64,000 nucleotides of DNA. Origin: a virus. The stretch is taken from IMG/VR virus record IMGVR_UViG_3300042878_001341, positions 14,963 to 78,962 of that record, one strand, 5' to 3'. The position numbers and the translations under genes were made by a program. The notes below the pieces were generated by a model. The model saw only the letters and a list, made by a program, of their open reading frames with translations, had not been told where the DNA came from and searched no databases. How positions within the stretch are numbered: position 1 is the stretch's first letter; the number at the start of each line of letters is the position of its first letter. Positions 56,757-60,805 of this stretch are shown here, in pieces.

Positions 56757-57557
56757 ATGAAAGACAAAAACACGGGGATCCCAATTAACCAAGAAGAAAT
56801 TCAATACTATCTAAAAGATATACGTAGAATTAAAGTAATGACACCTGACAGAGAAAAAGAACTGGCGGTGAAGATGAAGAATGAGGATACTCCTGAACAC
56901 GAGAGAAAGAAAATTGAGTCTGAACTATTAGTTGGTAATTTACGTTTTGTTATCACAGTAGCAAAACAATACCAAAATCAAGGTTTAGATCTATCGGATC
57001 TAATTGCTGAAGGTAACTTAGGATTGATGAAAGCAATCAAAAACTTTGATTGGAATAAGGATCTACGTTTTATATCATATGCGGTATGGTGGGTTAAACA
57101 ATCTATCATCCAATCTTTGAATGATAACTCAAGAACTATCCGTCTACCTGTTAACGTCGTACAAGACCTACACAAGGCTAAAAAAGAAATTGAGGTTACG
57201 GGTAAAGAATTAGATTTAAAGTTCACGTCATTACCATCTATGATTGATTTGGATATGACTATCAATGAGGAAGGTGATACGTTGGTTGATATGATTGCTA
57301 ACCCTGACGCACTTGCTCCTGATGCGGGATTCAACACTAAAGATATGATAAAGAACAAACTTTTATCTTTATTGAATGTCTTAGATGATAGAGAGAAAGT
57401 GATCATTGAGGATTACTATGGGTTAAGTGGAACTCCAAGAACACTTGAAGATATTGGAGGAGACTTTGGACTAACTAAAGAACGAGTTAGACAGATCAAG
57501 GAAAGAGCTCTTAGAAGATTGAGAAATGAAAGTTCGGAATTATTTGATTACTTATAA
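56757..57557 (+). CDS. RNA polymerase sigma70-family factor, Bacteroidota primary-sigma-like
   Basis: Region 1.2 YLKDI; region 2 NLRFVITVAKQYQNQGL..DLIAEGNLGL..FISYAVWWVKQSI; region 4 TLEDIG..LTKERVRQI; no region 1.1. Confidence 0.92.
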   Translation: MKDKNTGIPINQEEIQYYLKDIRRIKVMTPDREKELAVKMKNEDTPEHERKKIESELLVGNLRFVITVAKQYQNQGLDLSDLIAEGNLGLMKAIKNFDWNKDLRFISYAVWWVKQSIIQSLNDNSRTIRLPVNVVQDLHKAKKEIEVTGKELDLKFTSLPSMIDLDMTINEEGDTLVDMIANPDALAPDAGFNTKDMIKNKLLSLLNVLDDREKVIIEDYYGLSGTPRTLEDIGGDFGLTKERVRQIKERALRRLRNESSELFDYL

Positions 57558-58028: not shown

Positions 58029-58059
58029 TTTGCAGATTGGAATAAATGTTATATATTTG
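58029..58059 (+). promoter_or_regulatory. Bacteroidota consensus promoter TTTG-N19-TATATTTG
   Basis: Exact match to the -33/-7 consensus TTTG-N19-21-TAnnTTTG. Confidence 0.75.
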
Positions 58060-58079: not shown

Positions 58080-58367
58080 ATGACAAACACAGAAACAACC
58101 AAGAAAGTAGGATTAGTAGTTAACAAAGGTACATGGGAAGGTGCTAAATGGACATTGACAGGATACCCAAACAAAAACACATTTCGTGATTGGGATAGTG
58201 CATATGACTTTGAGGGTTTTGTTAAAAACGTATTAAATATTAGTGGTGATTTTGATTCTGAAACTTGTCAGTTCTACGTTTACTTTGACACCAAACAAAA
58301 GGCAACTGCGGCTTTGAACAAGATTGAAAAACATTTCAAAAAAGTAGGTGAAATGTTAGGTTTGTAA
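58080..58367 (+). CDS. Hypothetical (probably early) protein, 95 aa
   Basis: ATG 58080 downstream of the promoter; the track start at 57963 overlaps the upstream gene. Confidence 0.7.
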   Translation: MTNTETTKKVGLVVNKGTWEGAKWTLTGYPNKNTFRDWDSAYDFEGFVKNVLNISGDFDSETCQFYVYFDTKQKATAALNKIEKHFKKVGEMLGL

Positions 58368-58379
58368 GGAAAAAAGATA

Positions 58380-58387
58380 TATATTTG
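58380..58387 (+). promoter_or_regulatory. Bacteroidota -7 element TATATTTG upstream of a non-coding region
   Basis: Identical to the -7 elements at 56195 and 58052; -33 element imperfectly spaced. Confidence 0.55.
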
Positions 58388-58391
58388 TAAA

Positions 58392-58534
58392 ACAAACGAA
58401 CAGGGTTGTACCGAGATTACCCTTATAACTCGGCGGAATGAGACACGATGTTCTCAAGGTGAAAATCCTCAATCTTGTCCTGGCGATAAGATGAAATTAC
58501 ACTCCCCCCTTGGTACCGAGGGGGGTTTTATTTT
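58392..58534 (+). ncRNA. Candidate structured ncRNA (H-type pseudoknot, three hairpins, terminator)
   Basis: About 50% GC by count in an AT-rich genome; AGGGT/ACCCT and CCGAG/CTCGG interleaved; TGAGA/TCTCA, AGG/CCT and ATCTTGTC/GATAAGAT hairpins. Confidence 0.6.
58504..58534 (+). terminator. Strong Rho-independent terminator
   Basis: CCCCCCTTG-gtac-CGAGGGGGG then TTTTATTTT. Confidence 0.85.
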
Positions 58535-58952
58535 ACACCCAAATTACAATTTGATTTTTACCGGTTCTAAAAGGATTTTCACTTGATTCTCTAAATACGG
58601 TGAATACTTCTAAGACCCAATTTGTCCCTGAGATATGAACAGGATTTAAAGGGATGGCTAATTCCCATTTTTCTGACTTAACAACAAAAGCTTCACCATC
58701 TTTTATTTCACGGTTAACTATTTTTTCTGCGATCTGAGATTTAGCCATCATTACAACCTCTCTAATCTCTCTATTTTCAATAGGCCTTTGATTGTAACCC
58801 GTACCTTCTAATTCAGGCCTTGTTGATCTGTCAAAAGCGTGTTTTTTACGATCCACTTCTAAATTAAAGGTAACTTCAATAGAAGTGACTATCTGTGCAA
58901 TCGTTTTTTCTTGTATTAAAACTCTACGTATTGATTCTCTAAGTAATGACAT
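58533..58952 (-). CDS. Putative head-packaged protein, possible BECR/RelE-like RNase fold
   Basis: Leader LRESIRRVLIQE; HAFDR..R and LEVFTVFR motifs; TATTTAT 6 nt upstream on the minus strand. Confidence 0.55.
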   Translation of the reverse strand: MSLLRESIRRVLIQEKTIAQIVTSIEVTFNLEVDRKKHAFDRSTRPELEGTGYNQRPIENREIREVVMMAKSQIAEKIVNREIKDGEAFVVKSEKWELAIPLNPVHISGTNWVLEVFTVFRESSENPFRTGKNQIVIWV

Positions 58953-59001: not shown

Positions 59002-60210
59002 ATGAAAGAAAAATTTTTACCATGGTTTTTATTATTTTGTGCTCTTGGTCTATCAGGAACCGCGGCTTATTATAGTGTTGTGGGGTTATCTGTGGTGTTT
59101 GTTGGTGTTGCGTTACCTGTAATCATTATGGGATCGTTTCTTGAGGTATCTAAGATTGCCATAGCAACATACTTACACGATAAATGGAAAGAAACATACG
59201 GAGTATTAAAAGTATACCTTACAATTGCTCTTGTGACGTTATCGTTAATTACTTCACTTGGGATCTACGGTTTATTAAGCACTGGGTTTCAGGGGAATAT
59301 TGCAAAACTTGAGATTAATCAGAAAGAGATTGCAAACGTAGAAGTAAAGAAGACAAGATTTGTGGAGATAAAAGATGAGTTACAAAAAGAAAAAGACGTT
59401 TTAGATAAAGACATTTCAAAGTTAAGAGATGGGTTATCTACTAATACCACAACACAAACCGTTGATAGAACTACGGGTCAATTAATTACAAGGGCAAATA
59501 ATGCTAACCGTAAGTCATTTGAGGATCAATTAAAAATGACAACAGAAAATAGAGATAAAGTATCTACTCGTATTGATGCAATGAATGATAGTATCACTAG
59601 ATTGGATATTGAAATACTTGATATGGAATCTGCGGAGTTGGAAGGTAGTGAATTAGGATCCATTAAATACATCAGTGAGCTTTCGGGATGGGATGTTAAG
59701 AAGGTGGCAAACCTTTTTATATTACTTTTAATCTTTGTGTTTGATCCCTTAGCAATAACTTTGGTTATTGCAACCAATCAAGCGTTTAAAAATAATAAGA
59801 AAAAAAATAATACCCCCCAAGTTACCCCCCAAGTTACCCCTCAAGTTGAACCGATAATAATTGAAAAAATTGTTGAGGTTCCTGTTGAGGTAATTAAGGA
59901 AGTTGAAAAGATTGTTGAGGTACCTGTTGAGGTAATTAAGGAAGTTGAAAAGATTGTTGAGGTACCTGTTGAGGTTATTAAAGAAGTTGAAAAGATTGTT
60001 GAAGTGGAAAAAATAGTTGAGGCACCTATAGTACAAAGAGAACCTTTAATTATTAGTGTTGATAAAAGTTGGGAACATTTATCTGATGATGATTTATTTG
60101 AAGATGGTGAATATTACATGAGAAGTAATGGGACAGGTGATGAGTCAACAACTACGACAACAACTAATGATGGTGTTAAGAGACTAGTTTATAAAAAGAA
60201 TGATGAATGA
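59002..60210 (+). CDS. Multi-pass membrane protein with coiled coil and VEVPVEVIKEVEKI repeats
   Basis: Three N-terminal TM helices, coiled coil, TM LLIFVFDPLAITLVIA, repeat tail. Confidence 0.75.
   Translation: MKEKFLPWFLLFCALGLSGTAAYYSVVGLSVVFVGVALPVIIMGSFLEVSKIAIATYLHDKWKETYGVLKVYLTIALVTLSLITSLGIYGLLSTGFQGNIAKLEINQKEIANVEVKKTRFVEIKDELQKEKDVLDKDISKLRDGLSTNTTTQTVDRTTGQLITRANNANRKSFEDQLKMTTENRDKVSTRIDAMNDSITRLDIEILDMESAELEGSELGSIKYISELSGWDVKKVANLFILLLIFVFDPLAITLVIATNQAFKNNKKKNNTPQVTPQVTPQVEPIIIEKIVEVPVEVIKEVEKIVEVPVEVIKEVEKIVEVPVEVIKEVEKIVEVEKIVEAPIVQREPLIISVDKSWEHLSDDDLFEDGEYYMRSNGTGDESTTTTTTNDGVKRLVYKKNDE
59812..60021 (+). repeat. 12-bp (TPQV)x3 and 42-bp (EKIVEVPVEVIKEV)x3 tandem repeats
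   Basis: accccccaagtt x3 (one variant); 42-bp units at 59863, 59905 and 59947 plus partial copies. Confidence 0.9.
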
Positions 60211-60805
60211 GGATGATATCATAAAATTTGGGGACTTCAATTACGAAGGTGAGGAAAAAGTAAAAACTCAAATAATTTTATCTCACACTTCAAGAGTTGC
60301 GGTGGACTATATTAATGGTCTAAAGTATCGTTATGGGAAAAAATATAACAAAGTACCAAACTACATAGTTACCCGTGATGGTAAGATTATAGAACTATTG
60401 GAACCAAAGAAATACTCCAAATATATAAAGGATGAAAACATATCTAAGAAGTCAATAATAGTTTCTTTAGAAAATTTAGGTTGGTTAGAAAAAGAACCAT
60501 TAAAAAATAGATACATTAACTGGATTGGTAATATTTATAATGGAAAGGCTTTTGAACGTAAGTGGAGGGATTATTTTTTATGGCAACCATATACCCAAGT
60601 TCAAATTGATAGTACCGTACTAATATGTAAAAAACTAATGGAAGAATTTAACATTAGTAAAAAATGTGTGGGACATAACACTAAAGTAAATGGTGTAAAT
60701 CAATTTGACGGTATTGTTACCAGAAGTAATTACACCACAGATGTTACGGATCTAAGTCCGGCATTTGATTTTGATTATTTTAAAAAAAATATAGAAGATG
60801 AATAG
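60200..60805 (+). CDS. N-acetylmuramoyl-L-alanine amidase-like (Amidase_2/PGRP fold), catalytic residues possibly degenerate
   Basis: QIILSHT, NYIVTRDGKI, SIIVSLEN, YTQVQIDS, DLSPAFD. Confidence 0.7.
   Translation: MMNEDDIIKFGDFNYEGEEKVKTQIILSHTSRVAVDYINGLKYRYGKKYNKVPNYIVTRDGKIIELLEPKKYSKYIKDENISKKSIIVSLENLGWLEKEPLKNRYINWIGNIYNGKAFERKWRDYFLWQPYTQVQIDSTVLICKKLMEEFNISKKCVGHNTKVNGVNQFDGIVTRSNYTTDVTDLSPAFDFDYFKKNIEDE

What the first reader, a model, noticed from the sequence alone, without database searches (positions are those of the whole stretch)
58380..58534. Stand-alone pseudoknotted ncRNA with its own Bacteroidota -7 element and terminator, plus a possible antiterminator switch
Seen: after TATATTTG (58380-87) comes a ~140-nt, ~50% GC region in which almost every segment can pair. 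H-type pseudoknot: S1 AGGGT 58402-06/ACCCT 58419-23, S2 CCGAG 58411-15/CTCGG 58429-33. Hairpins follow at 58439-56, 58457-69 (GAAA loop) and 58472-92, then a C6/G6 terminator. GTACCGAG occurs twice (58408 and 58513), so the 5' copy can pair with CTTGGTAC (58509-16) in the terminator, which would disrupt both the pseudoknot and the terminator. An 18-codon ORF (58438-58494, MRHDVLKVKILNLVLAIR) also lies inside. Inference: an unclassified phage sRNA. The ~32-nt pseudoknot with A-rich flank recalls type III ToxI antitoxin units, which some phages mimic; a riboswitch-like or attenuator role is the alternative.
Basis: partly seen in the sequence, partly recalled or inferred. Interest (0 to 1): 0.8.

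Follow-up and report, generated by a model that had tools for sequence, protein, structure and literature searches.

The report
Conserved pseudoknotted phage small RNA gene
This is a real, strongly conserved gene for a knotted RNA of about 130 bases, carried once per genome by giant lake-water phages and found almost unchanged in unrelated phages; no RNA catalogue lists it, and it most likely works as a free RNA that binds a protein, perhaps blocking an RNA-cutting enzyme.

Summary
Both pseudoknot stems are supported.

The unit 58403-58533 is single-copy, matches no Rfam family and has no copy in 185,000 bacterial and archaeal genomes. It is better conserved (about 91% nt) than the genes on either side (about 77%). 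It also occurs at about 84% identity in phage DNA that shares no protein with this phage, so it is a self-contained gene.

The 18-codon ORF is not under coding selection. The GTACCGAG repeat and the antiterminator pairing are peculiar to this window. ToxI-type features (tandem repeats, a co-directional toxin gene) are absent.

The convergent 139-aa gene looks like a RelE/RegB-type RNase. All 77 of its homologues seen here face some small RNA gene. The reverse does not hold: the RNA lacks this neighbour in about 43% of contexts and in a 93%-complete genome.

Best reading (0.4): a trans-acting protein-binding RNA, probably an RNase decoy or antidote. Function is unproven. This scan had already flagged the same RNA family on other genomes.

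The parts
58359..58387 (+). Bacteroidota-type promoter: TTTG (58359-62), a 17-nt spacer, then the -7 element TATATTTG (58380-87). The same promoter and A-rich leader precede the 95-aa gene at 58029-58059.
   Evidence: Read from the sequence. The same promoter and leader lie directly upstream of the RNA in many relatives. The only genes of the early-looking block 51.5-64 kb with TAnnTTTG within 45 nt upstream are 56224 and 58080; two structural genes (18574, 28954) also have it. Transcription from this promoter is not shown.
58403..58533 (+). The conserved RNA unit (family called R1 here), about 131 nt. The transcript from the promoter would be about 140 nt.
   Evidence: Similarity to phage DNA that shares no proteins with this phage starts at 58403 and stops at 58533, at about 84% identity. 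The covariance model gives 156.7 bits here and one strong hit per genome. Metatranscriptome contigs cover 58267-58497 and 58250-58480; these are contigs only.
58402..58423 (+). Pseudoknot stem S1: 58402-06 pairs with 58419-23.
   Evidence: A-U to U-A in 12 sequences and G-C to U-A in 2. The rival helix GGUU/AAYU has no compensatory change.
58411..58433 (+). Pseudoknot stem S2: 58411-15, inside the S1 loop, pairs with 58429-33.
   Evidence: 100% of cells pair; A-U to G-C in L076/L131 and G.U in 2 sequences.
58440..58455 (+). Hairpin P3 (GAGAC/GnUCUC with one bulged base).
   Evidence: The stem is invariant in 49 sequences and only the bulged base varies. This is compatible with the hairpin but does not demonstrate it.
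58457..58469 (+). Hairpin P4: 3 bp with a 7-nt loop UGAAAAU.
   Evidence: The closing pair is A-U in 23 sequences, G.U in 16 and G-C in 6. Support is weak.
58472..58492 (+). Hairpin P5: 8 bp with a variable loop.
   Evidence: Four pairs have compensatory changes and three have one-sided compatible changes.
58504..58534 (+). Palindromic intrinsic terminator (stem 58504-25, T tract 58526-34). The end of the convergent gene shares it.
   Evidence: The terminator scan finds it on both strands. Eight of nine pairs have compensatory changes.
58533..58952 (-). Convergent 139-aa gene ('g139'), a probable RelE/RegB-like (BECR-fold) endoribonuclease. It is an optional neighbour of the RNA.
   Evidence: No Pfam or PDB sequence match. 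The AF2 model has pLDDT 86.9. The best structural matches are RNase toxins: CdiA-CT Z 6.3, RelE/ParE/HigB Z 5-5.7, colicin E5 Z 5.2 and T4 RegB Z 4.6. E15 and H38 are invariant, and the TxH[AS]xxR and TVFRES motifs are conserved.
56757..57557 (+). Phage sigma-70-family factor, the conserved upstream anchor of the RNA's usual position.
   Evidence: Pfam Sigma70 regions 1.2, 2 and 4, and PHROG 351. Synteny.
58080..58367 (+). 95-aa accessory gene inserted between the sigma operon and the RNA. It carries a duplicate of the RNA's promoter and leader.
   Evidence: it is absent in most relatives.
59002..60210 (+). 402-aa membrane and coiled-coil protein, the first gene of a lysis-like cassette (an amidase follows at 60200-60805). 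It is the conserved downstream anchor.
   Evidence: TATTTAT lies 25 nt upstream.

Best explanation
Bases 58403-58533 (+) are a self-contained gene for a structured, non-coding, trans-acting small RNA of a family not yet catalogued.

Shown:
- It is conserved and single-copy.
- It folds into a 5' H-type pseudoknot, then three hairpins, then an intrinsic terminator.
- It is not a coding region.
- It travels as a unit between unrelated phage genomes.

Inferred:
- In this phage it is transcribed early from its own host-type promoter, and also by read-through from the sigma-g150-g95 operon.
- The 5' pseudoknot protects and organises the RNA.
- The nearly invariant core of about 70 nt is a binding surface for a protein.

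The mechanism I commit to is a decoy or antidote for an endoribonuclease. Where the convergent RelE/RegB-like gene is present, that RNase is the target. Where it is absent, the target would be a related RNase from the host or from competing phages.
For: That it is a real RNA gene:
- Covariation in five of six helices, with 0 of 500 shuffles as good.
- One hit of about 150-160 bits per genome, including a 272-kb genome that is 93% complete.
- The core is about 91% identical at the nucleotide level, against about 77% for both flanking genes, in 64 of 64 loci.
- Promoter-like motifs lie 5-27 nt upstream in most contexts.
- Metatranscriptome contigs from two studies contain it.

That it acts in trans as a stand-alone unit:
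- The same unit, with sharp edges at 58403 and 58533, lies in loci that share no protein with this 79-kb phage record.
- Its neighbours there are different.

That it is linked to an RNase:
- All 77 g139 homologues recovered in my loci lie tail to tail with a unit made of a promoter, a structured RNA and a terminator. The RNA is R1 or one of three other types.
- One of these pairs sits at the end of a gp23 capsid operon, which is a different neighbourhood.
- The g139 model resembles RelE, ParE, HigB, CdiA-CT, colicin E5 and RegB RNases.
- g139 carries the late-type TATTTAT motif, whereas the RNA has an early host-type promoter. That ordering fits an antidote made before the toxin.
Against: - The RNA lacks g139 next to it in 29 of 68 resolved contexts.
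- A 93%-complete genome with the RNA has no g139-family gene at all.
- The RNA sequence is essentially the same opposite g139 clades that are only 34% to 94% identical. On the g139 tree the facing RNA type switches at least 2-4 times. There is therefore no sign of RNA and protein evolving together.
- R1 lacks the loop motif shared by the other g139-facing RNAs.
- The RNase assignment rests on Z of at most 6.3, below the level at which fold matches are safe.
- No binding or inhibition has been tested.
- Most contexts come from one phage lineage, so adjacency partly reflects shared ancestry.
Confidence: 0.4

Rival explanations
1. An RNase-independent, host-directed or transcription-directed regulatory RNA. 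It would bind and sequester a conserved factor such as RNA polymerase or sigma (a 6S-like role) or a translation factor. The g139 gene would merely sit in the same position and exploit the RNA gene's terminator or its convergent transcription.
For: - The RNA is kept nearly unchanged without g139, including in a 93%-complete genome.
- It does not co-evolve with g139.
- In the main lineage it always lies just downstream of the phage sigma gene.
- In the unrelated L131 context, a different ECF-like sigma gene lies 2 kb away.
- Sharing of the unit between unrelated phages argues for a target common to them, which would be a host component.
Against: - It has no resemblance to 6S RNA or any Rfam family.
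- The second sigma association is a single observation noticed after the fact.
- It does not explain why every g139 homologue, even in a capsid operon, faces a small RNA gene.
- A scan for base-pairing targets gave nothing above shuffled controls.
Confidence: 0.3
2. A cis-acting element. One version is a protective 3' end and terminator module for the sigma operon. The other is a terminated leader in front of the lysis cassette, in the manner of the lambda pR'-tR' 6S transcript.
For: - No terminator separates the upstream genes from the RNA.
- In some relatives the unit starts 5-20 nt after a stop codon, with no TAnnTTTG element.
- RNA-library contigs bridge the 95-aa gene and the RNA.
- A lysis enzyme follows within 1-2 genes in two unrelated contexts: an amidase here and a lysozyme-LysM protein in L108.
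Against: - A convergent gene separates the RNA from the lysis cassette in 39 of 68 contexts.
- The cassette has its own TATTTAT motif.
- A terminator or stabiliser does not need an invariant 70-nt core with a pseudoknot.
- The unit moves on its own, with promoter-like motifs, between unrelated gene neighbourhoods.
Confidence: 0.12
3. A riboswitch or attenuator in which the 5' GTACCGAG segment pairs with the terminator to switch termination on or off.
For: An aptamer-like conserved core sits directly before a terminator. A 5-bp core of complementarity (ACCGA with UUGGU) is present in most relatives.
Against: - The helix pairs no better than shuffled columns, and 2 of its 8 pairs are broken in more than 85% of sequences.
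- Only 2 of 49 sequences have the 5' GTACCGAG.
- There is no consistent co-directional downstream gene.
- It matches no riboswitch model.
Confidence: 0.04
4. A mimic of a type III (ToxI-like) antitoxin that defeats a host ToxN/AbiQ-type abortive-infection toxin.
For: It has an H-type pseudoknot of about 32 nt with an A-rich loop 3. Phage-borne ToxI mimics are known (PMC5086642). The unit is shared among unrelated phages, as an anti-defence gene might be.
Against: - A single unit, with no tandem repeats.
- About 70 further nucleotides of conserved structure beyond the pseudoknot, which a ToxI unit does not have.
- No cellular counterpart from which it could have been copied, in 185,000 genomes.
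Confidence: 0.03
5. The region encodes the 18-residue peptide MRHDVLKVKILNLVLAIR.
For: An ATG-initiated frame of 17-18 codons is open in 39 of 49 relatives.
Against: - In 9 of 49 relatives the frame stops at codon 7.
- Variable columns fall 8, 10 and 7 on codon positions 1, 2 and 3, so there is no third-position bias.
- The changes follow the RNA pairings instead.
Confidence: 0.01

Closest known systems
Type III toxin-antitoxin RNA antitoxins (ToxI, CptI, TenpI; review PMC5086642)
   Same: An H-type pseudoknot RNA that ends at a Rho-independent terminator and lies next to a probable endoribonuclease gene. The RNA is plausibly made in excess over the protein, and earlier.
   Different: - Type III antitoxins are tandem repeat arrays that the toxin processes. 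This RNA is one non-repeated unit of about 131 nt with three extra hairpins.
- In type III systems the toxin gene lies downstream on the same strand in one operon. Here the gene is convergent, has its own late-type promoter, and is absent in about 43% of contexts.
- The candidate RNase looks RelE/BECR-like, not ToxN, CptN or TenpN.
AbiF/RCd22 of a Clostridioides difficile prophage (bioRxiv 10.1101/2025.04.15.648962)
   Same: A phage-borne, non-repeat structured ncRNA that neutralises an RNA-targeting toxin by direct binding and acts in trans.
   Different: The toxin family (Abi_2/AbiD/F), the RNA motifs, the gene order and the host phylum are all different. For RCd22 binding was shown; for the present RNA nothing has been tested.
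Convergent, 3'-overlapping type I toxin-antitoxin pairs of Bacillus prophages (txpA/RatA, bsrG/SR4; from my own knowledge, not checked here)
   Same: A tail-to-tail arrangement in which a small RNA gene shares its terminator region with the 3' end of a toxin gene. Any RNA in that position is complementary to read-through toxin transcripts, which would explain why the facing RNA type can be swapped.
   Different: Those toxins are small membrane peptides. The overlap here is only the terminator. Antisense action would not require the conserved pseudoknotted fold.
Phage T4 RegB endoribonuclease and the T4 stable RNAs C and D (RegB structure 2hx6 matched; RNAs C and D from my own knowledge)
   Same: A T4-like phage (gp23-type capsid in relatives; a late motif related to the T4 late promoter) with a small RelE-fold RNase and stable small RNAs of unknown role near tRNA or regulatory genes.
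   Different: No sequence or model similarity to the T4 RNAs could be tested. RegB is not known to have an RNA partner.
Lambda pR'-tR' '6S' transcript and put/EAR antitermination RNAs (from my own knowledge)
   Same: A short terminated transcript located between a late-transcription regulator gene and the lysis genes.
   Different: The lysis cassette here has its own promoter motif and is often separated from the RNA by a convergent gene. The RNA is also found in unrelated neighbourhoods.
Rfam orphan motifs from lake metagenomes (for example freshwater-1, RF02979)
   Same: A structured RNA of unknown function from uncultured freshwater phages. freshwater-1 occurs next to the 95-aa gene's homologue in a relative.
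   Different: R1 matches neither freshwater-1 nor any of the 4227 Rfam models.

Membership tests
Any Rfam 15 family | A covariance-model score at or above the family's gathering threshold | tested here: not met
   0 hits in the 64-kb window. The best sub-threshold hits are 14-20 bits at E of 0.8 or more. No hit on the relative L050.
Type III TA antitoxin (ToxI/CptI/TenpI) | The antitoxin is a tandem array of short repeats | tested here: not met
   Tandem Repeats Finder finds nothing in 58200-58700. There is one model hit per genome.
Type III TA antitoxin (ToxI/CptI/TenpI) | A single-promoter bicistronic operon in the order repeats, terminator, co-directional toxin gene (PMC5086642) | tested here: not met
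   The only adjacent candidate toxin is convergent and has its own upstream motif. It is absent in 29 of 68 contexts.
Type III TA antitoxin (ToxI/CptI/TenpI) | The toxin belongs to the ToxN/AbiQ, CptN or TenpN families | tested here: inconclusive
   A PF13958 search of the phage record found nothing, but it also found nothing in the control genomes. g139 has no Pfam match, and its model resembles RelE/BECR RNases at Z of at most 6.3.
Type III TA antitoxin (ToxI/CptI/TenpI) | The RNA forms an H-type pseudoknot | tested here: met
   Both stems have compensatory changes.
Type III TA antitoxin (ToxI/CptI/TenpI) | The toxin processes and binds the RNA, and the RNA neutralises toxicity | not testable with these tools
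   This needs expression, cleavage and binding assays.
Riboswitch / transcription attenuator | Conserved, mutually exclusive pairing between the sensor and the terminator | tested here: not met
   The proposed helix is 70.3% paired against 70.5% in shuffles, and two pairs are broken in 42-46 of 49 sequences.
Riboswitch / transcription attenuator | A regulated gene immediately downstream on the same strand | tested here: not met
   The downstream gene is convergent in 39 of 68 contexts. In the remaining contexts the downstream gene has its own promoter-like motif.
Small protein gene | An open frame is kept and substitutions are biased to third codon positions | tested here: not met
   9 of 49 sequences are truncated at codon 7. 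Variable columns number 8, 10 and 7 by codon position.
RelE/ParE-BECR RNase (for the 139-aa neighbour) | A RelE-like alpha/beta fold | tested here: inconclusive
   The top structural matches are nearly all RNase toxins of this fold (Z 4-6.3, about 75-90 residues aligned). However, Z is below 8 and the best Foldseek E-value is 0.02.
RelE/ParE-BECR RNase (for the 139-aa neighbour) | Conserved acid-base and basic catalytic residues | tested here: inconclusive
   E15 and H38 are invariant, and the Arg of the TxHxxR and FRES motifs is conserved across 44 diverse homologues. Whether these residues lie at the active site was not checked.

The most novel reading that the evidence does not exclude
R1 is an 'immunity RNA'. 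It would be a non-repeat, pseudoknotted RNA that neutralises RelE-fold RNases which some of these phages make late, and perhaps package. Phages without the RNase would keep the RNA, and it would spread horizontally between unrelated phages, as protection against RNase-armed competitors or against host RelE-type defence toxins. This would be a new class of RNA-protein toxin-immunity system: a RelE-fold toxin with a structured RNA antidote in a convergent layout, and an RNA gene exchanged between unrelated phages.
Probability: 0.25. Interest if true: 0.85.

Novelty: new variant of a known kind. Interest (0 to 1): 0.62.

Why it matters
Phage-encoded structured RNAs with known roles are few. This one has the marks of an important function. 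Its core is nearly invariant, there is one copy per genome, and it has held the same position in 270-300-kb phages. The bare RNA unit is also shared among phages that have no genes in common.

If it is an RNase decoy, it would extend RNA-based neutralisation of toxins beyond the repeat-array type III systems to RelE-fold enzymes. It would also show RNA genes being traded between phages as counter-weapons. If it binds host machinery instead, it is a new takeover RNA for Bacteroidota, a phylum whose RNA biology is poorly known. In either case the family is well enough defined, by boundaries, fold, alignment and covariance model, to be tested directly.

Tried and rejected
- **Rfam.** Scans at the gathering threshold and at E up to 10 gave nothing usable.
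- **tRNA/tmRNA scan.** Nothing in the window.
- **Deposited phage genomes.** blastn of the 1.4-kb region gave no match.
- **Bacterial and archaeal genomes.** Two pattern scans of 185,579 species genomes gave 0 hits. The patterns are exact, so diverged copies would be missed.
- **Base-pairing targets.** RNAduplex was run against the start regions of 109 ORFs. The best energy, -39.2, lies inside the range of shuffled RNAs (mean -35.5, best -45.2), so there is no support for a target. The method was crude.
- **HDV-like, pistol, preQ1 and other folds.** I considered these by eye and rejected them because the strongly covarying P5 uses the bases they would need. Rfam models agree.
- **Alternative closing helix GGUU/AAYU from RNAalifold.** It has no compensatory change and is broken in 7, 2 and 2 sequences at three of its pairs.
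- **More distant g139 neighbourhoods.**
  - The protein alignment was too diverse for the search for related loci.
  - Three distant representatives were not found in IMG/VR.
- **RNA libraries.**
  - Only assembled contigs were available.
  - They show that the element is present in three metatranscriptomes and is joined to the upstream gene's 3' end.
  - They show no ends, strand or abundance, and DNA carry-over is not excluded.
  - Parts without cover say nothing.
- **Published catalogue.** The catalogue of over 10,000 candidate structured RNAs from IMG/VR (PMC10690425) may already list this motif. Its supplementary files are not held, so this could not be checked.
- **Complex prediction.** No job was sent, because the tool takes no RNA chain.

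Full report
**Where it lies**

The window is part of a 78,962-base IMG/VR record that CheckV rates 27% complete. Relatives reach 272-296 kb at 93-100% completeness, so this is a giant phage of lake water.

The element lies between convergent genes: a 95-aa ORF (58080-58367, +) and a 139-aa ORF (58533-58952, -). Further upstream are an SbcC-like gene, a DUF6576 gene, a sigma-70-family factor (56757-57557) and a 150-aa gene. Downstream are a 402-aa membrane and coiled-coil protein and an amidase.

**Checking the observation**

The single sequence folds only moderately better than shuffles: z = -2.26 on the plus strand and -1.23 on the minus strand. No Rfam family matches, and there is no tRNA or tmRNA.

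**Relatives**

- Searches with the two flanking proteins found 24 loci. In nine contigs the intergenic element is 83-94% identical.
- Exact-pattern scans then gave 34-36 viral contigs and 68 metagenome contigs.
- Together these hold 53 distinct versions.
- A core of about 70 nt, from GGGUUGAACCGAG to CCUCAA, is almost invariant.

**Fold**

Sixteen of 35 pairs have compensatory changes. No shuffle out of 500 reaches any of the five measures, and sliding the partners by 1-3 columns drops pairing to 40-55%.

- S1: the outer pair switches from A-U to U-A in 12 sequences, and the next pair from G-C to U-A in two.
- S2: one pair changes from A-U to G-C in those same two divergent sequences, and to G.U in two others.
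- P5 and the terminator covary extensively.
- P4 has weak support.
- P3 never varies, so the data say nothing about it.
- RNAalifold's alternative closing helix has no compensatory change.

The pseudoknotted architecture is therefore real.

**What is not conserved**

- The 5' GTACCGAG is GAACCGAG in 47 of 49 sequences, and the terminator copy also differs. The proposed antiterminator helix pairs exactly as often as shuffled columns (70.3% against 70.5%) and is broken at two positions in more than 85% of sequences.
- The 18-codon frame stops at codon 7 in 9 of 49 sequences. Its variable columns are spread evenly over the three codon positions.

**Copy number and distribution**

A covariance model (R1) finds one strong hit per genome. 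There are no tandem repeats. No copy exists in one genome each of 185,579 bacterial and archaeal species, by two patterns.

**Conservation relative to the flanks**

The core is about 91% identical to the window's copy, against about 77% for the sigma gene and about 78% for the 5' part of the 402-aa gene. It is the higher of the three in 64 of 64 loci. These loci were found through an exact 25-base match within the core, which inflates the figure. Loci found through proteins show the same trend.

**Usual position**

- In the main lineage the order is sigma, then optionally the 150-aa and 95-aa genes, then the RNA, then optionally the reverse-strand 139-aa gene, then the 402-aa gene and the amidase.
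- The RNA is preceded by one of three things:
  - the same host-type TTTG/TAnnTTTG promoter and A-rich leader that here also precedes the 95-aa gene;
  - a TATTTAT-like motif formed by the last codons of sigma;
  - in some loci, nothing recognisable.
- TATTTAT lies within 45 nt upstream of 8 of 44 genes, against 0.6 expected. These include structural genes, the 139-aa gene and the 402-aa gene. The RNA therefore sits at the border between an early-looking operon and late-looking genes.

**A self-contained, mobile unit**

Six loci carry the RNA among genes with no detectable similarity to any ORF of the 79-kb record.
- L108/L061: the RNA is followed by a 137-aa gene and a lysozyme-LysM endolysin.
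- L131/L076: it lies 2 kb from an unrelated ECF-like sigma gene.
- L107: it faces a DUF1810 gene.

Nucleotide similarity to the window begins at 58403, or at 58380 when the promoter is included, and ends at 58533. This fixes the boundaries of the functional unit. It also argues strongly for a trans-acting gene and against a cis element tied to particular neighbours.

**The RNase lead**

Earlier reports of this scan, on other genomes, read this RNA as the partner of the convergent gene. I tested that idea.

- **Fold of the 139-aa protein.**
  - It has no Pfam or PDB sequence match.
  - It has 64 representative clusters at 50% identity, with invariant E15 and H38 and conserved TxH[AS]xxR and TVFRES motifs.
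  - A confident model (pLDDT 86.9) gives a top list made almost entirely of RelE, ParE, HigB, YoeB, CdiA-CT, colicin E5 and T4 RegB RNases.
  - The scores are only Z 4-6.3, and the best Foldseek E-value is 0.02. A RelE-like RNase is probable but not established.
- **From the protein's side, the association is complete.**
  - All 77 homologues in my loci face a small RNA unit.
  - The RNA is R1 or one of three other types. Those three share the loop motif GGAAGACGAUUNAGAUAC.
  - One such pair lies at the end of a gp23 capsid operon.
- **From the RNA's side, it is not.**
  - R1 is followed directly by the 402-aa gene in 29 of 68 resolved contexts.
  - A 93%-complete 272-kb genome and a 71%-complete one have R1 but no member of the protein family.
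- **No co-evolution.** On the protein tree, R1 and another RNA type alternate at least 2-4 times. R1 faces clades only 34% to 94% identical to the window's protein without itself changing.

So the protein seems to need a small RNA gene opposite it, whereas R1 does not need the protein.

**Expression**

Assembled contigs from three metatranscriptomes contain parts of the region. One matches the window exactly (58267-58497) and one comes from a relative (58250-58480). Both run from the 3' end of the 95-aa gene into the RNA and stop before the terminator hairpin. This is weak evidence for transcription and for read-through from upstream. Contigs give no ends, and DNA carry-over cannot be excluded.

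**Interpretation**

The safest statement, at about 0.95, is that this is a new family of structured, trans-acting phage small RNA.

For mechanism I favour a protein-binding decoy or antidote for RelE-type RNases (0.4). The reasons are the one-sided dependence of the RNase gene on such RNAs, the early-RNA and late-RNase promoter pattern, and the spread of the bare RNA among unrelated phages, as expected of a counter-weapon.

The main rival (0.3) is an RNase-independent RNA that targets host or transcription machinery. Supporting it are the RNA's persistence without the RNase, the lack of co-evolution, and the recurring neighbourhood of sigma genes.

The other readings rank lower:
- a cis-acting element: 0.12;
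- a riboswitch or attenuator: 0.04;
- a ToxI mimic: 0.03;
- a peptide: 0.01.

It fails the defining features of type III antitoxins apart from the pseudoknot (PMC5086642). In working principle it may be closest to non-repeat RNA antidotes such as RCd22 of the AbiF system (10.1101/2025.04.15.648962).

Noticed in passing
L144:1300-1500; L145-L181 (for example L156:5560-5700, L166:8040-8190, L162:4330-4520): Relatives carry other small RNA-like units in the same position, or opposite g139 homologues elsewhere. There are at least three architectures, and all present the motif GGAAGACGAUUNAGAUAC in a hairpin loop, sometimes twice. None matches Rfam. From memory, the motif resembles the universal 16S rRNA 790-loop sequence GGAUUAGAUACCC with one extra base. 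I could not test that resemblance.
   Followed up: partly
L021:2772-2833 and L021:1201-4389; also L018-L025: In relatives with a 72%-identical 95-aa gene, that gene is flanked by a tRNA gene array and by the Rfam orphan motif freshwater-1 (RF02979, 83.7 bits). A further structured-looking stretch of about 170 nt lies between tRNAs. The window itself has no tRNA.
   Followed up: partly
window, upstream of 16208, 21102, 23478, 41907, 43288, 58952(-), 59002 and 63204: TATTTAT lies within 45 nt upstream of 8 of 44 genes (0.6 expected), mostly structural genes plus the 139-aa and 402-aa genes. It is a likely late-promoter element. In relatives where the RNA directly follows sigma, the last sigma codons (GAY TAT TTA TAR) create the same motif 5-18 nt before the RNA. 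In this window that codon is TAC and the motif is absent.
   Followed up: partly
window 58459-58469 and 58572-58582: The 11-mer GTGAAAATCCT of the RNA's P4 hairpin recurs in the sense strand of the convergent 139-aa gene, in the codons for the conserved S-E-N-P-F. Plus-strand read-through of the RNA would therefore be self-complementary there. This may be chance.
   Followed up: no
window 58504-58525 and the equivalent in relatives: The terminator is a nearly perfect 22-nt palindrome. Its central six bases are GGTACC in most relatives, and GATATC or GGCGCC in others, so they are always palindromic. This fits a two-way terminator. It could also allow loop-loop dimerisation or act as a DNA site.
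   Followed up: no
window 59002-60210: The 402-aa protein has N-terminal transmembrane segments, a coiled coil, a further hydrophobic segment, and a C-terminal run of near-perfect EKIVEVPVEVIKEV repeats. Only its first 262 residues or so are conserved among relatives. It precedes the amidase and may be a holin-like or lysis-control protein.
   Followed up: no
L107:5737-6210 and L108:1103-2475: In unrelated phage backgrounds the same RNA faces a DUF1810 gene (L107) or precedes a 137-aa gene and a lysozyme-LysM endolysin (L108). A lysis enzyme lying near the RNA in two unrelated contexts may be meaningful.
   Followed up: partly
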